Sequence record: MT611523.1
Strand: one strand, 5' to 3'
From: Escherichia phage DK-13
DNA length: 64,000 nt
In this document: piece after piece, positions 20,521 through 63,018 of the stretch
Layout of the letters: each line of letters begins with the position of its first letter
Numbering within the stretch: position 1 is the first letter of the stretch
The notes under the pieces: generated by a model
Databases searched by the model: none
The model's input: only the letters and a program-made list of their open reading frames with translations
What the model was told of the DNA's origin: nothing
Position numbers and translations under genes: made by a program

Positions 20521-20556
20521 GGGGTCATTATACTCTGACCCCAAGAGTTTGTACAC
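20521..20556 (-). promoter_or_regulatory. sigma70-like early promoter with stem-loop (PeSL-like)
   Basis: minus strand GTGTACAAACTCTTGGGGTCAGAGTATAATGACCCC: -35-like, TATAAT, inverted repeat GGGGTCA/TGACCCC flanking the -10. Confidence 0.45.
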
Positions 20557-20932: not shown

Positions 20933-20968
20933 GGGAACATTATACTCTGCTCCCAAGAGTTTGTACAC
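20933..20968 (-). promoter_or_regulatory. sigma70-like early promoter with stem-loop (PeSL-like)
   Basis: near-identical copy of the 20521-20556 cassette (GTGTACAAACTCTTGGGAGCAGAGTATAATG). Confidence 0.45.
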
Positions 20969-21955: not shown

Positions 21956-21984
21956 TTTGTTTCTCCAGTTTGGTAACTCAGTAT

Positions 21985-22020
21985 GGAATCATTATACATA
22001 GACTCCATACTGATGTACAC
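21985..22020 (-). promoter_or_regulatory. sigma70-like early promoter
   Basis: minus strand GTGTACAT (-35-like), 17 nt spacer, TATAAT, leader GATTCCATACTGAGTTAC. Confidence 0.45.
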
Positions 22021-29339: not shown

Positions 29340-29363
29340 AAGCAAAAAGGCCCGAAGGCCTTT
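29340..29363 (-). terminator. rho-independent terminator upstream of gene 39
   Basis: minus strand AAAGGCC-UUCG-GGCCUUU then U-rich tract. Confidence 0.5.
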
Positions 29364-29761
29364 TATTTGAATCGAAGCTGCTCTAACATTTTAATAGCTT
29401 GTAGACGTCCGGCTTCAGTTTTAACCGTAATAATAACATCACCGCCGGTAACAACGATATCCTCTTTTGATTCCTGTTCGGTTATTTCAGAATCACATTC
29501 CGGGACTTCTTCAAAATATTTAAATTCATCACCAAAAATAAGACCGGTTCCATTACGACTATGGAAAGAAAACCCAGTTCCATCGATAGTACTAAATTCC
29601 GTAACAACATTTGCTTCCATCTTAGTGACTGAAAACTCTTTGGTAGTAACCAAATCAATGATAGAGGTTCCTTGTTGGTTCAAAATGCTACCAGGCATAC
29701 CGACATGTTTAAGGAAGCCATCTAAATCTTTAATGCAATAACTCTTTCCAATTTTAAACAT
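29363..29761 (-). CDS. hypothetical protein (132 aa)
   Basis: track ORF 29363..29938; start moved to ATG 29761 (MFKIGK...) with GAGGA SD, which removes overlap with the lipoprotein gene. Confidence 0.45.
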   Translation of the reverse strand: MFKIGKSYCIKDLDGFLKHVGMPGSILNQQGTSIIDLVTTKEFSVTKMEANVVTEFSTIDGTGFSFHSRNGTGLIFGDEFKYFEEVPECDSEITEQESKEDIVVTGGDVIITVKTEAGRLQAIKMLEQLRFK

Positions 29762-30213: not shown

Positions 30214-30588
30214 TTATTCCTTAAAATGTGCTTTCAACATCTGGTACACGGTCCAGGCTTCAGAGTTATTAGAAATTGTGATTTTAGTCAAAGGGAATTC
30301 GCTTGGTTCAAATGCTTCATCAGCGTCTTCGCATTCATCTTCAGTATCGTCATCTTTTTCTTCTTCAAAGAAACGACGCTCATCTTCCTTTATGAATATT
30401 CTCTCTATTCCACCGGTCGAAAATTCTATCCGATATACATCACCACCTTCAATTCCGACTGGTCTAAATCCTTCACCATTGATTATAGCATCAGCTATAT
30501 TATCATTATCAGAGCATAACAAACGAAATCTGCTTTCAGCAACATTATCTTTAAAATAATACCATTTATCAGTTTCAAATTTCAACAT
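30214..30588 (-). CDS. hypothetical acidic protein (124 aa)
   Basis: track ORF 30214..30729; start moved to ATG 30588 with GGAG SD; acidic tract EEEKDDDTEDECEDADE. Confidence 0.45.
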   Translation of the reverse strand: MLKFETDKWYYFKDNVAESRFRLLCSDNDNIADAIINGEGFRPVGIEGGDVYRIEFSTGGIERIFIKEDERRFFEEEKDDDTEDECEDADEAFEPSEFPLTKITISNNSEAWTVYQMLKAHFKE

Positions 30589-30805
30589 GATAAGTCTCCT
30601 TCCAAAAATCTGTACCATCTTCTGATTCTTCGCGGAACAGCGCATAGCTAGGTAATTCCGCACCTTCATACGCATACACATAAATGATATCAGTGGTGCA
30701 AAGAAATTCATTGATGTTTTTCTTAACAATCACTTTATCACTTTCAGCGGTTTCCCAGAACTCTTCAGCGGTCAGGGAAGTGGTCACACAATCTTCATTA
30801 AACAT
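30575..30805 (-). CDS. hypothetical protein (76 aa)
   Basis: track ORF 30575..30841; start moved to ATG 30805 with GAGGAG SD; hairpin gataggg-N5-ccctatc just upstream. Confidence 0.45.
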   Translation of the reverse strand: MFNEDCVTTSLTAEEFWETAESDKVIVKKNINEFLCTTDIIYVYAYEGAELPSYALFREESEDGTDFWKETYHVEI

Positions 30806-30850
30806 AATATTCTCCTCATTGATAGGGCAAAACCCTATCATTTTTATAAT

Positions 30851-31342
30851 TTAGGCACGATGAATATCAGCATACTCAACGATAAAGCTTTCAGGAACCA
30901 CCTTAAAGGTTCCAAGGAACACGATGTTATAGAGCTTAACGCCTTTTTCAACCCACTGGTCTGTGATGTAACCAGACATGCTAGTGGTTTCATAAGTACC
31001 AAAAGGTTCGTCAACATATTCAAACGGTTTAGGTGAAACAAAAAAGACACCTTTGCCCAATTTCCATTTAAAATCAACCCCAACATGAGACTGGTCAATG
31101 GTTTCAACTTCTTCGGTCACAGGAGCGATGTACCCAGTAAATTCGGTTGATTCCAGGAATTTAGGATGTACATAAGCCAATTGAGTTTCAGTCTGGCCAT
31201 TTTTAGGAATAATACGCACTTTAACTTCTTTAATTCCACCTACTAAATTAGTGCGAAGACCCACAACCTCAACAAAACGACCAGCAGCTTTAGAACGAGA
31301 TTCTTTAGAAACACGTGCAATATCACCAACTTCAACTTTCAT
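30851..31342 (-). CDS. hypothetical protein (163 aa), paralog of the next gene in its C-terminal module
   Basis: C-terminal GYITDQWVEKGVKLYNIVFLGTFKVVPESFIVEYADI matches GWVTDQWIEDGVELLNVVHAGEFTVVPRSMAVEIFN of ORF 31419..32171; size and position similar to T4 motB region. Confidence 0.55.
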   Translation of the reverse strand: MKVEVGDIARVSKESRSKAAGRFVEVVGLRTNLVGGIKEVKVRIIPKNGQTETQLAYVHPKFLESTEFTGYIAPVTEEVETIDQSHVGVDFKWKLGKGVFFVSPKPFEYVDEPFGTYETTSMSGYITDQWVEKGVKLYNIVFLGTFKVVPESFIVEYADIHRA

Positions 31343-31378
31343 AATTTTCTCTCTTGGTTAATAAGTTTATTCTCCAGT

Positions 31379-31414
31379 GGGGCCATTATACTCCGGCCCC
31401 AAGAGTTTGTACAC
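31379..31414 (-). promoter_or_regulatory. sigma70-like early promoter with stem-loop (PeSL-like)
   Basis: minus strand GTGTACAAACTCTTGGGGCCGGAGTATAATGGCCCC; inverted repeat GGGGCC/GGCCCC flanks the -10. Confidence 0.45.
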
Positions 31415-31418
31415 AAAT

Positions 31419-32171
31419 TTAATTAAAAATTTCAACAGCCATGGAACGTGGTACAACAGTAAATTCACCAGCATGGACAACGTTCAGGAGTTCAACACCA
31501 TCTTCAATCCACTGGTCTGTTACCCAACCACAAATGGAACTATTAAATGGACGTTTGATTTGAACTGGTTTACACAACAAGTCAATAGGGTCACCCAGCT
31601 CGCTAACTTCTTCCAGCAGTACAGATTCACGCGGATAAAGGATAGCTTCAAGATTGTCACCTGATTCATTGACTGCAGTAAATTCAAAAATGCTTTGGTG
31701 ATTGTGGTACTTAACTGTTTTAACGGTAAATGGAGCAAATCCAAAAATACCTTTCAGTACCCGCCAACCGGCATTCAATGCATTAGTATTATCAAAATCA
31801 CCATATCCAACAAGTTGATAGGTTTTGTCAACTTTGATAGGAGTTTCTTCAACTTCTTTGAAGAGTTCAATCTCAGCTTCATAAACCATAATTTTTTCTA
31901 CTTCATTTGTATCAAGGCGACGTGCATGTAGAATATATGCTTTATCAAACCAGTTACTTTTTACAAAAGTTTCAACAATAAATTCACCTTCACCTAAAGC
32001 ATCAGTCAGAGTATTATACCCAGAAACCATAGCTGCGTTTTGAGTAATAGGTTCAATCAGTTGATAAGTTTTGTTAATTTCAATAGTCATATTTTGTTTC
32101 TCAAGTTTTAATGGTTTAATTGGGCGAACATACATACTTACAACATCAAAGTCAATAAATTCTGGTTTCAT
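31419..32171 (-). CDS. hypothetical protein (250 aa), shares C-terminal module with ORF 30851..31342
   Basis: see paralogy above; ATG start. Confidence 0.55.
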   Translation of the reverse strand: MKPEFIDFDVVSMYVRPIKPLKLEKQNMTIEINKTYQLIEPITQNAAMVSGYNTLTDALGEGEFIVETFVKSNWFDKAYILHARRLDTNEVEKIMVYEAEIELFKEVEETPIKVDKTYQLVGYGDFDNTNALNAGWRVLKGIFGFAPFTVKTVKYHNHQSIFEFTAVNESGDNLEAILYPRESVLLEEVSELGDPIDLLCKPVQIKRPFNSSICGWVTDQWIEDGVELLNVVHAGEFTVVPRSMAVEIFN

Positions 32172-32428
32172 TATGCAACCTTATTGAACATCGCCAGTTG
32201 ATTAGGTTGTACAACCATAATTTCACGACGACCTTTTGCATTTGACACGTTCAGGTAGATGCCTTTGTTCATATCAGTTTCTTTATCATATACCGCAATT
32301 TTATTGACAGTAAAGATTTTACCACGAATATTTGTAAATGCACATTCAAACGCTTTAGTCAGACCTGCTTCAGCAGCTTGAAGAGCAGACATTTCATATT
32401 GTTGGCCAATTTCAAAAGAAGTAATCAT
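32171..32428 (-). CDS. hypothetical protein (85 aa)
   Basis: track ORF 32171..32476 begins inside the promoter/leader motif; start moved to ATG 32428 after leader TCAACTACTGATGAGGATAA. Confidence 0.45.
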   Translation of the reverse strand: MITSFEIGQQYEMSALQAAEAGLTKAFECAFTNIRGKIFTVNKIAVYDKETDMNKGIYLNVSNAKGRREIMVVQPNQLAMFNKVA

Positions 32429-32495
32429 TTTGTTATCCTCATCAGTAGTTGATGAGATGATTATGTCTCTTTCCATTGGCCTTGTACACTACTTT

Positions 32496-33179
32496 TTATC
32501 GTTTTTTCGGTAAAGATAACGGGTCTGCATCTTCTTCGGAAGGAACTTCATCTAAACCAAGAGCATAGCGCTGGGCATACTTTAACATCAAAATATCTTT
32601 CGCGCAGTCATGTACCGAATCGTGCGCCACAAATCCATCTAAAGTCCCTTTCGGTAATGGGGTTTCACACATCTTACGGACGAGTGATAGGGCTTCGATG
32701 GCTGTCCTAATATCTCGCTGGTTCCAGAATACAACCGGCTCCAGGTTATAGGTATTCAATTCACGCTCAGGAATCCCCTCATTGCGCTGTAGGTCGCGGA
32801 TAAGGTCAACAAACAACGGGAAGTCAAAAGACATCCCACGGCACCACATAAGGCTTTCGTATTTGTTAATTCCATTGCCATTCAGATAGTCAATCGCCTG
32901 TTGGATACCGGTCAGAGTATCAACATCTTGCGCAGAAGGAGCCAGGTTAACACGGGCTTCTGCTGATTGCTTTTTCCACCAACCCATGGTTGTTGTATCA
33001 AACAGACGTTTTCCTTTTTGGTATTCGAGACTGAACTTAATACGTTTGCCGCGATTAACCAGAGTTTCGAATGATTCCACAATAGCAGGGTCAGATTCGA
33101 ACGTAATCAGGGCCAGGTCAATAACGGCTCCCTTCGAGCCGTTTCCCAGAGTTTCAAAGTCAATAATAGCATCAATCAT
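32496..33179 (-). CDS. dexA: exonuclease A (DEDD-type 3'-5' exonuclease)
   Basis: IIDFET.G.G.K.AVIDLA.I.F, WC.GMSFDFP..VDLIRD.QR, DGFVAHDS.HDCAKDI.M.KYA resemble T4 DexA; track start 33182 is GTG, ATG at 33179. Confidence 0.9.
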   Translation of the reverse strand: MIDAIIDFETLGNGSKGAVIDLALITFESDPAIVESFETLVNRGKRIKFSLEYQKGKRLFDTTTMGWWKKQSAEARVNLAPSAQDVDTLTGIQQAIDYLNGNGINKYESLMWCRGMSFDFPLFVDLIRDLQRNEGIPERELNTYNLEPVVFWNQRDIRTAIEALSLVRKMCETPLPKGTLDGFVAHDSVHDCAKDILMLKYAQRYALGLDEVPSEEDADPLSLPKKR

Positions 33180-33447
33180 CACACATCTCTTTTAATTTCT
33201 GAATTTCACCAGCAACATAATCAGAGATAAAAATCCCTGGCTCTTCATTGTTAAAATATTCAATCGCGGCCATACGTTTCCGAATAAGATTCAGTTCCAG
33301 TAAAACGTAATTACCCTGCACGACGATAGTCGAATTATCTTCGAAAAATTCAACCGCGTCTTTAATACCGTAGATAAGATTATCTAAATCTTCTTTATGT
33401 ACTTTATACATAATATGCGTCGTACCTCGCTCGTGTGATTCCAACAT
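33172..33447 (-). CDS. hypothetical protein (91 aa, start uncertain)
   Basis: ATG ORF between dda and dexA; overlaps dda 3' end. Confidence 0.4.
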   Translation of the reverse strand: MLESHERGTTHIMYKVHKEDLDNLIYGIKDAVEFFEDNSTIVVQGNYVLLELNLIRKRMAAIEYFNNEEPGIFISDYVAGEIQKLKEMCDD

Positions 33448-34732
33448 AAGCCAACTGGCTCGCTAATGAAGCTTCGGCCATATGGATGCATGGGGTATAG
33501 ATGAATGCTTTGTCTACTGAAACGCCCTGGGCCTTGTGGATTGTACTGACCGGAAGAGCACGAACTTTCAAGAAGGTCCGGCGAGCTTTCCAGAAGTCTT
33601 TCCACTCTGGACGTTTGCCAGCGGCTTTCATCTGTTTGTATGTGTCAGCAACTTTCGCCAGGTATGCCTGGAATTTTGGTTGCTGGTCTTCAGGTAAAAC
33701 TTTGATGCGGTCAACCTGATATTCTTCATCTTCATCAATTGACTCAACTTCCAGGTCCCAGTAATTAATCACCAACTGGTGCGATTCACCTTTACAACGG
33801 AGAATGGTGGAAGTGTATTTGCAATCCTTGATGCGAACCAACTGACCATTATTAAAAATGGTTTCGCTGAATTTCTTGCCTTCAAATTCCAGCTCTTTCA
33901 TGTGTGGCTCTTGCATAACCAGGACTTCATACGGTAAAAATGCTTTATCCGTTTCATAGAGCTTGCGACGAATAATATTGTTCAGTTTTTCAACTGATTT
34001 ATTCGTGTACGCGTACATCCTGTTTTCCATCAGCATATCAGCATCTTTTACAATACTGAAATAGTTTGCCATGAAATCCTTTAAAGCGGTTTGTGAGGTG
34101 AAACCCTGTACACCATGACCCTCATACATACAGTCACGGAACCAACCACCATTACGAATTTCTGTCGCCACTTCAATGATAGGAGCATTGCTTCGCATGA
34201 CCTCAGTCAGATGAATCTGTTTGAACTTAGGATGCGTAAAGAATGGGCTTATCTTTTGTTGTGTGCTTCCTGGGTCAACTGGCTGCAGCTGGTGCATATC
34301 ACCAATCCCAAGAATAGTACACCATTCTGGAACAGAGTTAAGAATAATCTTAAACAGAGACCCGTCATACATACTTGCTTCATCACAAACCAGAACATTA
34401 CATTTTGACATGTCAGGCATTTCGCGCTGTTCAAAAACGTTTTGGTCTTCATATGTGGTCGGGTTAATCTTCAGGATACTATGGATTGTATTCGCCGTTT
34501 GACCAGACAATTTAGATAGAACCTTTTTTGCCTGGTGAGTTGGTGCGGCAAGCACAATTCCCATAACTCCATTACGCACTAAGTGGTCAATGACAAATTT
34601 TGTCAGAGTAGTTTTACCTGTACCAGCTGGACCATTCAGAGTGATACATTCCCCTGAACGTCGTTGAATAGCTTCAGTGATATAATCAAAAGCTTCTTTT
34701 TGTCCTGTGTTCAAGTCTTCAAATTTAATCAT
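33404..34732 (-). CDS. dda: DNA helicase Dda (SF1)
   Basis: 442 aa; Walker A GPAGTGKTTLTKF, ILAAPTH.AKK.LSKLSG..A.TIHSILKINP resemble T4 Dda. Confidence 0.93.
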   Translation of the reverse strand: MIKFEDLNTGQKEAFDYITEAIQRRSGECITLNGPAGTGKTTLTKFVIDHLVRNGVMGIVLAAPTHQAKKVLSKLSGQTANTIHSILKINPTTYEDQNVFEQREMPDMSKCNVLVCDEASMYDGSLFKIILNSVPEWCTILGIGDMHQLQPVDPGSTQQKISPFFTHPKFKQIHLTEVMRSNAPIIEVATEIRNGGWFRDCMYEGHGVQGFTSQTALKDFMANYFSIVKDADMLMENRMYAYTNKSVEKLNNIIRRKLYETDKAFLPYEVLVMQEPHMKELEFEGKKFSETIFNNGQLVRIKDCKYTSTILRCKGESHQLVINYWDLEVESIDEDEEYQVDRIKVLPEDQQPKFQAYLAKVADTYKQMKAAGKRPEWKDFWKARRTFLKVRALPVSTIHKAQGVSVDKAFIYTPCIHMAEASLASQLAYVGITRARYDAYYV

Positions 34733-55979: not shown

Positions 55980-56198
55980 TTAATCAAAGTATTCATATGC
56001 AAACCAGGCATTGTGTCTGTTCGCGATTATTTTAACATATTCTTCACCGAAAGCGTTTTGTAAGTCACGTTCAGTAACAAGGTGTTCATCTTTCGAAAAG
56101 GTATTAACTAACACATATCGTTTAATTTCAGGGACAGCCAGTAAATGCTGCCCGGTTAAAAAATTGCTCATAAATAATATTATCCGTTGCAGTATCAA
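55980..56198 (-). CDS. hypothetical protein (72 aa or shorter)
   Basis: track start is TTG; internal ATG at 56171; position as T4 45.2. Confidence 0.4.
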   Translation of the reverse strand: MILQRIILFMSNFLTGQHLLAVPEIKRYVLVNTFSKDEHLVTERDLQNAFGEEYVKIIANRHNAWFAYEYFD

Positions 56199-56211
56199 AC
56201 AAGGGTCTGAT

Positions 56212-56928
56212 ATGAATTATAACATCATTTACCAAAAGCTTATTAGCAGAGCATTGAATCGCAAATTAACCACATACTCTGAAAGTCATCACATTATACC
56301 CCGTTGCATGGGTGGGGCAGACGACGCTTCAAATCTTGTTGATTTAACTCCCGAGGAACATTTCGTTTGTCATCAACTGTTGGTCAAAATGCATCCAAAT
56401 AATGCTTCTTTGGTCTATGCCGCGCGCATGATGACAGTTTCCTCACCAAACGCCGACAGAAGCAAAAACAAATTATTTGGATGGCTTCGTCGTAAAAACT
56501 TGGAAGCTCAACAAAATAAAATTTTCTCCGATGAAACCAGAAAGAAAATGTCAGAATCCGCCAAATTAAAACCGAGAGTTGAATGTCCACACTGTGGAAA
56601 AACCGGTCTCGTTGGCAATATGAATCGTTGGCATTTTGATAACTGTTCCAAAGGTCCAAACAAGGTTGTTCATACTATTCCAGAAAAACAAAAGCAAAAA
56701 ATTTCAGTAGGATTAAAACAAGCTAAACATGAAATTTTAACTTGTGAATTTTGTGGTCTTGAAGGTAAAAAGTGTGTTATATCCACTCACCAACAATTCT
56801 GCAAATCCAATCCAAACCGGAAGAAAAAGGTGGACCCCAAAATTCAGTGTCCACATTGTAATGTAGTCGGTACGCCAGCCAATATGAAACGTTGGCATTT
56901 TGATAACTGCAAAATGAAGCCTCAATAA
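56212..56928 (+). CDS. HNH-family homing endonuclease-like protein with three C-terminal zinc-finger-like repeats
   Basis: track ORF 56011..56928; start moved to ATG 56212 (MNYNIIYQKL...); HNH motif ESHHIIPRCMGGADDASNLVDLTPEEHFVCH; repeats CPHCGKTGLVGNMNRWHFDNC, CEFCGLEGKKC, CPHCNVVGTPANMKRWHFDNC; only plus-strand gene in this early block. Confidence 0.75.
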   Translation: MNYNIIYQKLISRALNRKLTTYSESHHIIPRCMGGADDASNLVDLTPEEHFVCHQLLVKMHPNNASLVYAARMMTVSSPNADRSKNKLFGWLRRKNLEAQQNKIFSDETRKKMSESAKLKPRVECPHCGKTGLVGNMNRWHFDNCSKGPNKVVHTIPEKQKQKISVGLKQAKHEILTCEFCGLEGKKCVISTHQQFCKSNPNRKKKVDPKIQCPHCNVVGTPANMKRWHFDNCKMKPQ

Positions 56929-62946: not shown

Positions 62947-63018
62947 GATATATTCCTCAGTCTCATTAAATTAAAATTTTATTATCCTGGGGCCATTATA
63001 CCATGACCCCGTTGGTTT

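What the first reader, a model, noticed from the sequence alone, without database searches (positions are those of the whole stretch)
30851..32171. Tandem paralogs sharing a C-terminal module, split by an early promoter cassette
The 163-aa and 250-aa proteins end with closely related segments (GYITDQWVEKGVKLYNIVFLGTFKVVPESFIVEYADI versus GWVTDQWIEDGVELLNVVHAGEFTVVPRSMAVEIFN), while their N-terminal parts differ. A promoter/stem-loop cassette lies between them. This looks like a domain duplication followed by divergence, possibly two specificities on one effector scaffold. The locus corresponds roughly to the T4 motB/dexA.x region.
Basis: seen in the sequence. Interest (0 to 1): 0.4.

Follow-up and report, generated by a model that had tools for sequence, protein, structure and literature searches.

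The report
MotB and MotB.1 phage paralogs
Two neighbouring early genes of a T4-like phage, motB and motB.1, really do share a small conserved C-terminal domain behind different N-terminal domains, but this relationship and the promoter/hairpin cassette between the genes are already published, so the finding is real but ordinary.

Summary
The 163-aa protein is MotB (Pfam PF17613, E 5.5e-52). The 250-aa protein is MotB.1 (phrog_2333). Their C-terminal domains are homologous: BLASTP E 6e-12, and profile-profile probability 98.6%, E 6e-16, over MotB.1 198-250 and MotB 94-159. The 76-nt spacer holds a sigma-70-type promoter whose -10 box lies in the loop of a G/C hairpin.

This is already known. 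Son et al. 2021 described the shared C-terminal domain, the different N-terminal domains, the tandem gene order and a likely duplication. Kim et al. 2025 described the LSm-like N-terminal barrel of MotB.1. Arbiol et al. 2010 described the promoter-stem-loop cassettes (PeSLs). Several GenBank records already label the 250-aa protein "MotB domain-containing".

Small additions from this work:
- The Gaprivervirus MotB.1 carries two diverged LSm-like barrels in tandem.
- The shared domain looks SH3/Tudor-like rather than clearly OB-fold, and it is acidic.
- The spacer hairpin shows compensatory changes across phage genera.
- The T4 reference record has an extra G that truncates MotB.1 inside the shared domain.

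Function is inferred only. The shared domain most likely gives both proteins a common binding or targeting activity, and the N-terminal barrels differ in what they add.

The parts
30851..31342 (-). motB: 163-aa MotB, a 'modifier of transcription' and non-specific DNA-binding early protein.
   Evidence: Pfam PF17613 E 5.5e-52 over residues 1-159. phrog_1671 E 2.4e-67. 100% identical to MotB of Escherichia phage DK-13.
31145..31342 (-). MotB N-terminal KOW/SH3-like barrel (aa 1-66). It is basic, pI about 10.
30863..31078 (-). MotB C-terminal domain (aa 89-160), the shared module in its long-hairpin form.
   Evidence: AF2 pLDDT above 90 with five strands at 98-157. hhalign to the MotB.1 C-terminal domain. 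Alignment A4.
31343..31418 (-). PeSL-type cassette. It has an AT-rich upstream stretch, -35 TGTACA (31408-31413), -10 TATAAT (31385-31390), a 7-bp stem (31395-31401 pairing with 31378-31384) whose 10-nt loop holds the -10 box, and then a Shine-Dalgarno sequence and the motB ATG.
   Evidence: Promoter scan 10 of 12. Fold -20.3 kcal/mol, z -2.6. Covariation: 70 of 70 cells paired, 5 of 7 pairs compensatory, 0 of 500 shuffles as good. Similar cassettes recur in the window.
31419..32171 (-). motB.1: 250-aa MotB.1-family protein.
   Evidence: phrog_2333 E 1.1e-77. Annotated motB.1 in SP18 and 'MotB domain-containing protein' in UPEC07. 99% identical to database protein P0001.
31422..31586 (-). MotB.1 C-terminal domain (aa 196-250), the shared module in its short form, lacking about 20 aa of hairpin tip. 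It is acidic, pI 4.7.
   Evidence: AF2 strands at 202-248. The 30-aa core has 95% mean pairwise identity across the family.
31596..31844 (-). MotB.1 barrel B (aa 110-192), LSm-like/SH3-like and of the T4 MotB.1 type.
   Evidence: BLASTP to T4 MotB.1, E 1e-18 over residues 112-222. The AF2 secondary-structure order is the same as in barrel A.
31845..32090 (-). MotB.1 barrel A (aa 28-109), LSm-like/SH3-like, of the type found alone in the roughly 180-aa MotB.1 proteins of many other T4-like coliphages.
   Evidence: A versus B BLASTP E 1e-4, 29% identity over 82 aa. 60-65% identical to the barrel of 180-aa homologues. AF2 model.
32091..32171 (-). MotB.1 N-terminal extension (aa 1-27). It carries the conserved motif IDFDVVSMYVxPxKPL and is predicted disordered. 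Its start codon overlaps the stop of the upstream 101-aa ORF (TAATG).
   Evidence: Positions D7, D9, Y14, K19, P20 and L21 are at least 90% conserved. pLDDT is below 50. The overlap is read from the sequence.

Best explanation
The two genes are motB and motB.1 of a Gaprivervirus (an SP18/VR-type T4-like coliphage).

Shown:
- The two proteins share one homologous C-terminal domain of about 50-70 residues. It is an all-beta, five-strand small barrel and is the most conserved part of both proteins.
- MotB places it behind a basic KOW/SH3-like barrel.
- This MotB.1 places it behind a conserved 27-residue leader and two diverged LSm-like barrels in tandem.
- The genes are co-oriented. They are separated by a promoter-early-stem-loop (PeSL) cassette that matches a sigma-70 early promoter upstream of motB and carries a conserved hairpin on the sense strand at the 3' end of motB.1.

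Inferred:
- The pair arose by an old duplication or shuffling of the C-terminal module within T4-like phages, perhaps helped by recombination at PeSLs.
- The shared domain provides a common binding or targeting activity. The most likely target is the nucleoid DNA/H-NS-DNA complexes to which T4 MotB is known to bind.
- The N-terminal barrels add different activities: KOW for tight DNA binding, and LSm-like barrels for a different, possibly RNA, ligand.
- The hairpin acts on read-through motB.1 RNA as an attenuator or 3'-end stabiliser, and the promoter re-initiates transcription for motB.
For: Identity.

Homology of the C-terminal domains.

Domain anatomy:
- AF2 models.
- Internal repeat.
- T4 MotB.1 aligns to barrel B plus the C-terminal domain.
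- The full-length MotB model aligns over about 150-165 columns to tandem Tudor and KOW6-KOW7 structures (Foldseek probability about 0.98-1.0, E about 1e-2).

Constraint: the 30-aa core of the C-terminal domain has 95% mean pairwise identity in MotB.1 against 69% for barrel A, and 78% in MotB against 57% for its N-terminal domain.

Conserved pairing: motB.1 lies directly upstream of motB in 21 of 21 loci.

Module reuse: KOW plus a MotB.1-type C-terminal domain, and other combinations, occur in metagenomic relatives.

PeSL cassette.

Published biology:
- T4 MotB binds DNA tightly and non-specifically, copurifies with H-NS/StpA on DNA, is toxic when overexpressed and doubles burst size (PMC6070864, PMC7827196).
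- The shared C-terminal domain and a possible duplication were stated in PMC7827196.
- The LSm-like N-terminal domain of MotB.1 is described in PMC12152347.
- PeSL promoter and terminator activity was shown for RB49/phi1 in PMC2839356.
Against: - No experiment or computation here assigns a ligand to the shared domain.
- The domain is acidic to neutral: pI 4.7 in MotB.1, 5.2 in this MotB and 7.9 in T4 MotB. MotB's N-terminal domain has pI about 10. DNA binding may therefore reside in the KOW barrel, not in the shared domain.
- MotB.1 as a whole has pI 4.7, which is unlike a non-specific DNA binder.
- Deleting T4 motB.1 gave no phenotype, and MotB.1 had no effect on a reporter RNA (PMC12152347).
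- The hairpin is not followed by a U-run, so it is not a canonical intrinsic terminator.
Confidence: 0.6

Rival explanations
1. The shared C-terminal domain is a protein-protein module rather than a nucleic-acid binder. It would mediate homo- or hetero-oligomerisation, or docking on a common host or phage partner. MotB would then bind DNA through its basic KOW barrel. MotB.1, always encoded next door, could heterodimerise with MotB. That would either tether LSm-like barrels to MotB-DNA complexes or temper MotB's toxicity.
For: - The C-terminal domain is acidic or neutral and has invariant D, E and W residues, while MotB's N-terminal domain has pI about 10.
- The two genes co-occur strictly in 21 of 21 loci.
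- The core of the C-terminal domain is extremely conserved.
- MotB is toxic when expressed alone (PMC6070864).
- T4 MotB.1 runs partly as a dimer (PMC12152347).
- MotB appeared to bind cooperatively with H-NS in footprints (PMC7827196).
Against: - No interaction data exist, and complex prediction could not be run here.
- The reported MotB.1 dimer was seen on non-reducing SDS-PAGE with a cysteine-containing, reference-truncated protein, so it may be a disulfide artefact.
- AlphaFold3 gave no confident homomultimers (PMC12152347).
- The motB.1 deletion had no burst-size phenotype (PMC12152347).
Confidence: 0.3
2. The similarity is a chance or compositional resemblance confined to a short hydrophobic stretch, and the genes are unrelated.
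For: The shared segment is short, about 50 aa. A profile of it also picks up short repeated motifs (SGYATEQWVEDKGYL) in long repeat proteins at E 1e-6 to 1e-4.
Against: - BLASTP E 6e-12 with compositional adjustment.
- Pfam hit above the gathering threshold.
- hhalign probability 98.6%.
- Only one other hit among 681 window ORFs.
- The predicted strand order is the same in both models.
- The relationship has been published (PMC7827196).
Confidence: 0.01
3. motB.1 is a decaying duplicate of motB, on its way to becoming a pseudogene, with no function of its own.
For: - It is dispensable in T4 under laboratory conditions (PMC12152347).
- Frameshifted or fragmentary copies exist: the T4 reference record, locus L016, the RB69 29-aa peptide (PMC7827196) and the 43-aa P0260.
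Against: - An intact ORF is present in nearly all loci, with 95% identity in the core of the C-terminal domain across genera.
- The T4 'frameshift' occurs only in the reference record.
- The N-terminal barrels have been gained and kept, not lost.
Confidence: 0.04

Closest known systems
T4 MotB (Pfam PF17613; Patterson-West 2018, Son 2021)
   Same: The 163-aa protein is an orthologue. It gives a full-length Pfam match, is 53% identical to T4-type MotB, has the same KOW-like N-terminal domain plus conserved C-terminal domain, and lies at the same position between motB.1 and cef.
   Different: The window's MotB is not basic overall (pI 5.96, against 9.23 for T4). Only its N-terminal domain stays basic. 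DNA binding, H-NS effects and toxicity have been shown only for the T4 protein.
T4-type MotB.1 (143 aa in T4T; Son 2021 categories 2-4; phrog_2333)
   Same: It has the same C-terminal domain, 70-77% identical, and the same position directly upstream of motB behind a PeSL. Barrel B aligns with the T4 MotB.1 N-terminal domain (E 1e-18 together with the C-terminal domain).
   Different: The window protein has two barrels in tandem (A and B) plus a 27-aa leader. T4-type proteins have a B-like barrel only, and most other coliphage MotB.1 proteins have A only. In Mosigvirus the leader motif sits between the barrel and the C-terminal domain.
GoF / Frd.2 / MotB.1 LSm-like fold family (Kim et al. 2025)
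   Different: Sequence similarity to GoF in this window is not significant. No RNA-binding or ring-forming property has been shown. GoF and Frd.2 lack the MotB-type C-terminal domain.
PeSL, promoter-early stem-loop cassettes of T4-type phages (Arbiol 2010; Comeau 2014)
   Same: AT-rich upstream region, sigma-70-like -35 and -10 boxes with a 17-nt spacer, a G-tract/C-tract stem-loop overlapping the -10 box, a Shine-Dalgarno sequence and start codon, and several copies in the same early region.
   Different: The -35 box here is (G)TGTACA rather than TTGACA or TTTACW. Activity has not been measured for this copy. Here the hairpin is conserved at an orthologous site across genera by compensatory change, which points to function and not only to a recombination substrate.
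Tandem SH3-like barrel proteins (53BP1/UHRF1 tandem Tudor, Spt5 KOW6-KOW7, EF-P/eIF5A domains)
   Same: The predicted MotB is two small beta-barrels joined by a flexible linker. The best structural matches are to these architectures.
   Different: There is no sequence relationship. The scores are weak and not resolved by domain. Son 2021 assigned the C-terminal domain to the OB-fold/eIF5A-C type by HHpred, which could be neither confirmed nor excluded here.

Membership tests
MotB (Pfam PF17613) | Full-length match to the family model above the curated cut-off | tested here: met
   The 163-aa protein scores 176.3 bits against a cut-off of 25, over residues 1-159 of the protein and positions 1-158 of the 162-position model.
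MotB (Pfam PF17613) | N-terminal KOW-like barrel plus conserved C-terminal beta domain | tested here: met
MotB (Pfam PF17613) | Tight non-specific DNA binding, H-NS/StpA co-purification and toxicity in E. coli | not testable with these tools
   Known only for T4 MotB (PMC6070864, PMC7827196).
MotB.1 family (phrog_2333; Son 2021 categories 2-4) | C-terminal domain homologous to the MotB C-terminal domain | tested here: met
   BLASTP E 6e-12. Pfam 34.2 bits, above the cut-off of 25, on residues 210-244. hhalign probability 98.6%.
MotB.1 family (phrog_2333; Son 2021 categories 2-4) | N-terminal domain unrelated to MotB's KOW barrel and LSm-like in fold | tested here: met
   No N-terminal similarity to MotB. 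Two barrels in the AF2 model. Barrel B aligns to the T4 MotB.1 N-terminal domain. phrog_2333 E 1.1e-77.
MotB.1 family (phrog_2333; Son 2021 categories 2-4) | Gene immediately upstream of motB on the same strand | tested here: met
   True for the window and for 20 other loci. Also shown by the annotations.
PeSL (promoter-early stem-loop cassette) | Sigma-70-like -35 and -10 boxes with about 17-nt spacing and an AT-rich upstream region | tested here: met
   TGTACA-17 nt-TATAAT, 10 of 12. The upstream sequence is AAATTTTTAATTAAATT.
PeSL (promoter-early stem-loop cassette) | [quoted passage not shown] | tested here: met
   The stem TGGGGCC/GGCCCCA encloses GGAGTATAAT. 70 of 70 cells are paired and 5 of 7 pairs are compensatory across 10 distinct sequences.
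PeSL (promoter-early stem-loop cassette) | Repeated in the hyperplastic early regions, followed by a Shine-Dalgarno sequence and a start codon | tested here: met
   Four matches to the core pattern against 0.03 expected. A fifth was found by a generic scan at about 21996. All are on the minus strand upstream of ATG codons.
PeSL (promoter-early stem-loop cassette) | Measured promoter and terminator/attenuator activity | not testable with these tools
   Shown only for RB49/phi1 examples (PMC2839356).
OB-fold, cold-shock/eIF5A-C type (proposed for the MotB C-terminal domain by Son 2021) | Five-strand closed barrel with OB topology, with OB proteins as closest structural neighbours | tested here: inconclusive
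Sm/LSm (Hfq-like) proteins | Sm1/Sm2 motifs, ring oligomer and RNA binding | not tested

The most novel reading that the evidence does not exclude
The shared C-terminal barrel is a hetero-/homo-association module. MotB.1 would then be a partner of the toxic nucleoid-binding MotB, either buffering its activity or recruiting LSm-like barrels, possibly RNA-binding, to MotB/H-NS-coated DNA. On this reading the family of KOW/LSm plus C-terminal-domain combinations is a modular phage toolkit for remodelling the host nucleoid. A corollary follows from the T4 reference frameshift: the published negative results for T4 MotB.1 may have been obtained with a protein lacking the conserved core of the C-terminal domain, so its function has not yet been properly tested.
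Probability: 0.15. Interest if true: 0.5.

Novelty: already known. Interest (0 to 1): 0.2.

Why it matters
MotB is one of the few T4 host-takeover proteins linked to H-NS and nucleoid structure, and neither its mechanism nor that of MotB.1 is solved. Which domain is shared, how strongly it is constrained, and that it recombines with different small beta-barrels all narrow the experiments needed. The practical point with the most leverage is a side observation. The T4 reference sequence truncates MotB.1 within the shared domain, whereas 13 other T4-type records encode an intact 143-aa protein. Functional work based on the reference ORF may therefore have used an incomplete protein.

Tried and rejected
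- Sequence searches of both proteins, and of a C-terminal-domain profile, against PDB chains found nothing below E = 1.
- NCBIfam and PADLOC gave no hits.
- I tested whether the N-terminal half of the 250-aa protein, or the upstream 101-aa ORF, corresponds to T4 MotB.2. There is no similarity.
- Exact-pattern scans of IMG/VR for the T4 frameshift site found neither allele. The question was settled with the GenBank phage collection instead.
- The C-terminal-domain profile search of 1.84 billion representatives returned only 36 proteins at E of 1e-3 or better. The long multi-repeat hits (P0259, P0261, P0269 and others) match only a motif of about 20 residues repeated several times, and I treated them as spurious.
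- A domain-resolved fold assignment of the C-terminal domain was not possible.
- The similarity of barrels A and B to the window's own GoF is not significant by BLAST or HMM, so that link rests on the literature and on weak PHROG hits.
Full report
**Source and gene map.** The window is from a Gaprivervirus, a T4-like coliphage of the SP18/VR20 type. The region 30500-33300 is 95-97% identical at the nucleotide level to phages TH44, UPEC07, CJ20 and SP18. All the relevant genes lie on the minus strand. In order of transcription they are:
- dda (33404-34732)
- a 91-aa ORF
- dexA (32496-33182)
- a 101-aa ORF (32171-32476)
- the 250-aa ORF (31419-32171)
- the 163-aa ORF (30851-31342)
- cef (30575-30841)
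- goF (about 30214-30588)

T4 has the same order except that motB.2 replaces the 101-aa ORF and dexA.1/dexA.2 lie on the other side of dexA.

**Observation check.** Both ORFs and both quoted peptides are present.
- The 163-aa protein is MotB: Pfam PF17613 at E 5.5e-52 over the full length, phrog_1671 at E 2.4e-67, and 100% identity to phage DK-13 MotB.
- The 250-aa protein belongs to phrog_2333 (E 1.1e-77). SP18 annotates it motB.1, and UPEC01/UPEC07 annotate it 'transcription regulator MotB domain-containing protein'.
- The C-terminal similarity is significant by four tests. BLASTP gives E 6e-12, 46% identity over 52 aa. The Pfam motB model hits residues 210-244 at 34.2 bits, above the 25-bit gathering cut-off. 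hhalign of the two family alignments gives probability 98.6% and E 6.2e-16, pairing MotB.1 198-250 with MotB 94-159. An HMM built from MotB.1 C-terminal domains alone finds MotB, and nothing else, among 681 window ORFs (E 2.4e-13).
- A joint alignment shows that the homology spans the whole structured C-terminal domain of MotB. MotB.1 lacks about 20 residues at the tip of the first hairpin. The invariant positions form the motif D-x-W-x-E-x-G-x-x-L-x-N-x-V-x-x-G-x-x-x-V.

**Anatomy of the proteins.** The AF2 model of MotB has mean pLDDT 82. It shows a five-strand N-terminal barrel (aa 8-65), a disordered linker (aa 70-84) and a five-strand C-terminal domain (aa 98-157) with pLDDT above 90.

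The AF2 model of the 250-aa protein has mean pLDDT 74. It shows a disordered leader (aa 1-27), two alpha/beta barrels with the same order of secondary-structure elements (aa 35-106 and 117-189), and a five-strand C-terminal domain (aa 202-248). The two barrels are detectably homologous to each other: BLASTP E 1e-4, 29% identity over 82 aa.
- Barrel B plus the C-terminal domain aligns to T4 MotB.1 (E 1e-18).
- Barrel A is the barrel found alone in the roughly 180-aa MotB.1 proteins of many other coliphages.
- Among the loci and proteins examined, the A-B-CTD architecture occurs only in the Gaprivervirus-type set: the window, L001, L002, L004, L006 and L009.

**Constraint and charge.** The 30-residue core of the C-terminal domain is the most conserved part of each protein. 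Its mean pairwise identity is 95% in MotB.1, against 69% for barrel A, and 78% in MotB, against 57% for the N-terminal domain. MotB's N-terminal domain is basic (pI about 10). The shared domain is acidic to neutral: pI 4.7 in MotB.1, 5.2 in this MotB and 7.9 in T4 MotB. MotB.1 as a whole has pI 4.7.

**Distribution.** In the window, three GenBank loci and 17 IMG/VR loci, a gene carrying the C-terminal domain lies directly upstream of motB on the same strand. That makes 21 of 21 loci. RB69-like loci carry motB.1 plus two motB copies.

A profile of the C-terminal domain, searched against 1.84 billion representative proteins, returned only 36 hits at E of 1e-3 or better. Apart from a few repeat proteins that match only a short motif, these are small proteins. 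They include combinations not seen in the cultured phages:
- a KOW barrel with a MotB.1-type short C-terminal domain (P0245);
- a KOW barrel, then the MotB.1 'leader' motif, then the C-terminal domain (P0249, P0253, P0255, P0257, P0258);
- the Mosigvirus MotB.1 (P0254), in which the leader motif lies between the barrel and the C-terminal domain.

The module has therefore been shuffled among small barrels. This was not just a single tandem duplication.

**The spacer.** The 76-nt spacer reads, on the minus strand: TAA-ATTTG-TGTACA-AACTCT-TGGGGCC-GGAGTATAAT-GGCCCCA-CTGGAGAATAAACTTATTAACCAAGAGAGAAAATT-ATG.
- TGTACA-17 nt-TATAAT is the best promoter-like site in the 3.5 kb scanned.
- The 7-bp stem encloses the -10 box. 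The folded spacer gives -20.3 kcal/mol, z = -2.6.
- The stem is kept in ten distinct orthologous spacers from Gaprivervirus-type, T4-type and JS98-type phages. All 70 cells pair, 5 of 7 pairs show changes on both sides (for example GGGGCC/GGCCCC, GGGACC/GGTCCC, GAGAGCC/GGCTCTC), no shuffle of 500 reaches this, and the slid-register controls collapse.
- The ten non-Watson-Crick cells are all G-U pairs on the coding (minus) strand. They would be A-C mismatches on the other strand. This points to selection on the sense RNA, that is, on the 3' end of read-through motB.1 transcripts.
- No U-run follows the stem.
- Near-identical cassettes recur at 20521-20542, 20933-20954 and 62989-63010 (0.03 expected by chance). 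A longer-stemmed one lies near 21996.
- All of this matches the published PeSL definition, including 'overlapping the -10 box' as a common position for the stem (PMC2839356, PMC4122927).

**What is known.**
- Son et al. [quoted passage not shown] They found that 40 other phage genomes carry both genes, and that the homologues fall into a MotB group and MotB.1 groups with two distinct N-terminal domain types.
- Kim et al. 2025 (PMC12152347) showed that the MotB.1 N-terminal domain shares a predicted LSm-like/SH3-like barrel with GoF and Frd.2. They found no phenotype for a motB.1 deletion and no effect of MotB.1 on a reporter RNA.
- Patterson-West et al. 2018 (PMC6070864) showed that T4 MotB binds DNA tightly and non-specifically, copurifies with H-NS/StpA, is toxic when overexpressed and doubles burst size.
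- Only two papers in the searched library mention MotB.1.

**Mechanism.** This part is inferred. Both proteins most likely use the shared barrel for one common interaction and use the N-terminal barrels for different ones. I favour a targeting or ligand-binding role tied to MotB's known association with nucleoid DNA and H-NS-DNA complexes. Confidence for this overall statement is 0.6, and most of that rests on the identity and homology part. The main rival, at 0.3, is that the acidic C-terminal domain is a protein-protein or oligomerisation module, that the basic KOW barrel is the DNA binder, and that MotB.1 is a partner or modulator of MotB. Neither can be decided with the tools available; the deciding experiments are listed under next steps.

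**Side observation of practical value.** In the T4 reference record (AF158101.6 = NC_000866.4) the annotated 119-aa MotB.1 ends '...GGWVTDQWIGRWR*'. The +1 frame continues with 'EDGVELLNVVHAGEYSVVPRSAVVAILN', which is the conserved core of the C-terminal domain.
- Only those two records carry the extra G. Thirteen other T4, T4T, RB55 and RB59 records are one base shorter over the same interval. A direct alignment shows the single-base difference.
- T4T encodes an intact 143-aa MotB.1.
- Kim et al. report a 13.8-kDa MotB.1. Their methods state that gene synthesis and plasmid construction were done by a company, and they cite NC_000866.4 for the mutated T4 sequences they cloned. The paper does not mention a frameshift or truncation. 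Their heterologous MotB.1 may therefore lack the conserved core of the C-terminal domain.

**Verdict.** The core finding is already in the literature and in database annotation. The additions here are incremental: the tandem-barrel MotB.1, the SH3-like and acidic nature of the shared domain, covariation in the PeSL hairpin, new domain combinations in metagenomes, and the T4 reference frameshift.

Noticed in passing
L003 2741-2854 (T4 NC_000866.4, 7240-7353); compare L021 601-713 (T4T): The T4 reference record has one extra G (GATTGGAAGATGG against GATTGAAGATGG). It frameshifts motB.1 inside the shared C-terminal domain and gives the annotated 119-aa protein. Thirteen other T4, T4T, RB55 and RB59 records lack the extra G, and T4T encodes an intact 143-aa protein. 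The published MotB.1 work reports a 13.8-kDa protein and cites NC_000866.4 for its constructs.
   Followed up: yes
window 31378-31401 (minus strand) and orthologous spacers in L001-L017: The hairpin around the motB -10 box is kept by compensatory changes across Gaprivervirus-type, T4-type and JS98-type phages. All wobble pairs are G-U on the sense strand only, which suggests an RNA-level function for the PeSL stem at this site. The RB69-like loci L018-L020 lack this hairpin.
   Followed up: yes
window 20521-20542, 20933-20954, about 21975-22010, 62989-63010 (all minus strand): Further PeSL-type cassettes. Three of them share the nearly identical 40-nt core GTGTACAAACTCTTGGG..AGAGTATAATG..CCC with the motB cassette. 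They are potential substrates for recombination between early genes.
   Followed up: partly
proteins P0245, P0249, P0253, P0255, P0257, P0258 (metagenomic); P0254 (Mosigvirus MotB.1): The MotB.1 N-terminal 'leader' motif (IDxDVxSMYxxP) occupies different positions. In this window it lies before the barrels. In Mosigvirus it lies between the barrel and the C-terminal domain. In metagenomic relatives it lies between a KOW barrel and the C-terminal domain. It may belong structurally with the C-terminal domain, with the LSm-like barrels as insertions. P0245 is a KOW barrel joined to a MotB.1-type C-terminal domain.
   Followed up: partly
protein P0260 (43 aa); L016 2128-2644: P0260 joins the N-terminus of MotB.2 (MKIYRVESSFSIL.YED) to the last 28 residues of the MotB.1 C-terminal domain, apparently a deletion product. 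In L016 the barrel and the C-terminal domain of motB.1 are in different frames. The 29-aa RB69 peptide of Son 2021 may be a similar remnant.
   Followed up: no
window 30851-31342: This Gaprivervirus MotB has pI 5.96, whereas T4 MotB has pI 9.23. The high pI of T4 MotB was used in the literature to rationalise its DNA binding. Here only the N-terminal barrel remains basic.
   Followed up: partly
window 32171-32476 (minus strand): A 101-aa ORF (phrog_17795, no known function) occupies the place of T4 motB.2 and is unrelated to it. Its stop codon overlaps the motB.1 start codon (TAATG), which suggests translational coupling.
   Followed up: partly
window 29363-29761 and 30214-30588 (minus strand); weak hit at 55983-56216: goF and a second GoF-like gene (phrog_622, RB69ORF005c-like) lie within 2 kb of motB.1. 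The region therefore holds at least four predicted LSm-like barrels. A 78-aa ORF at 55983-56216 gives a weak hit to the barrel-A HMM (E 0.0056).
   Followed up: partly
proteins P0259, P0261, P0263, P0264 (600-860 aa): Long repeat proteins carry many copies of SGYATEQWVEDKGYLTEHQSL. This matches the GY(I/V)TDQWVE(D/K)G core of the shared domain at E 1e-6 to 1e-4. It is probably a convergent hairpin motif and was not examined further.
   Followed up: no
L001 1284-1382 (UPEC07): A 32-aa 'hypothetical protein' CDS is annotated across the motB.1-motB PeSL spacer in UPEC07. It is likely an annotation artefact.
   Followed up: no
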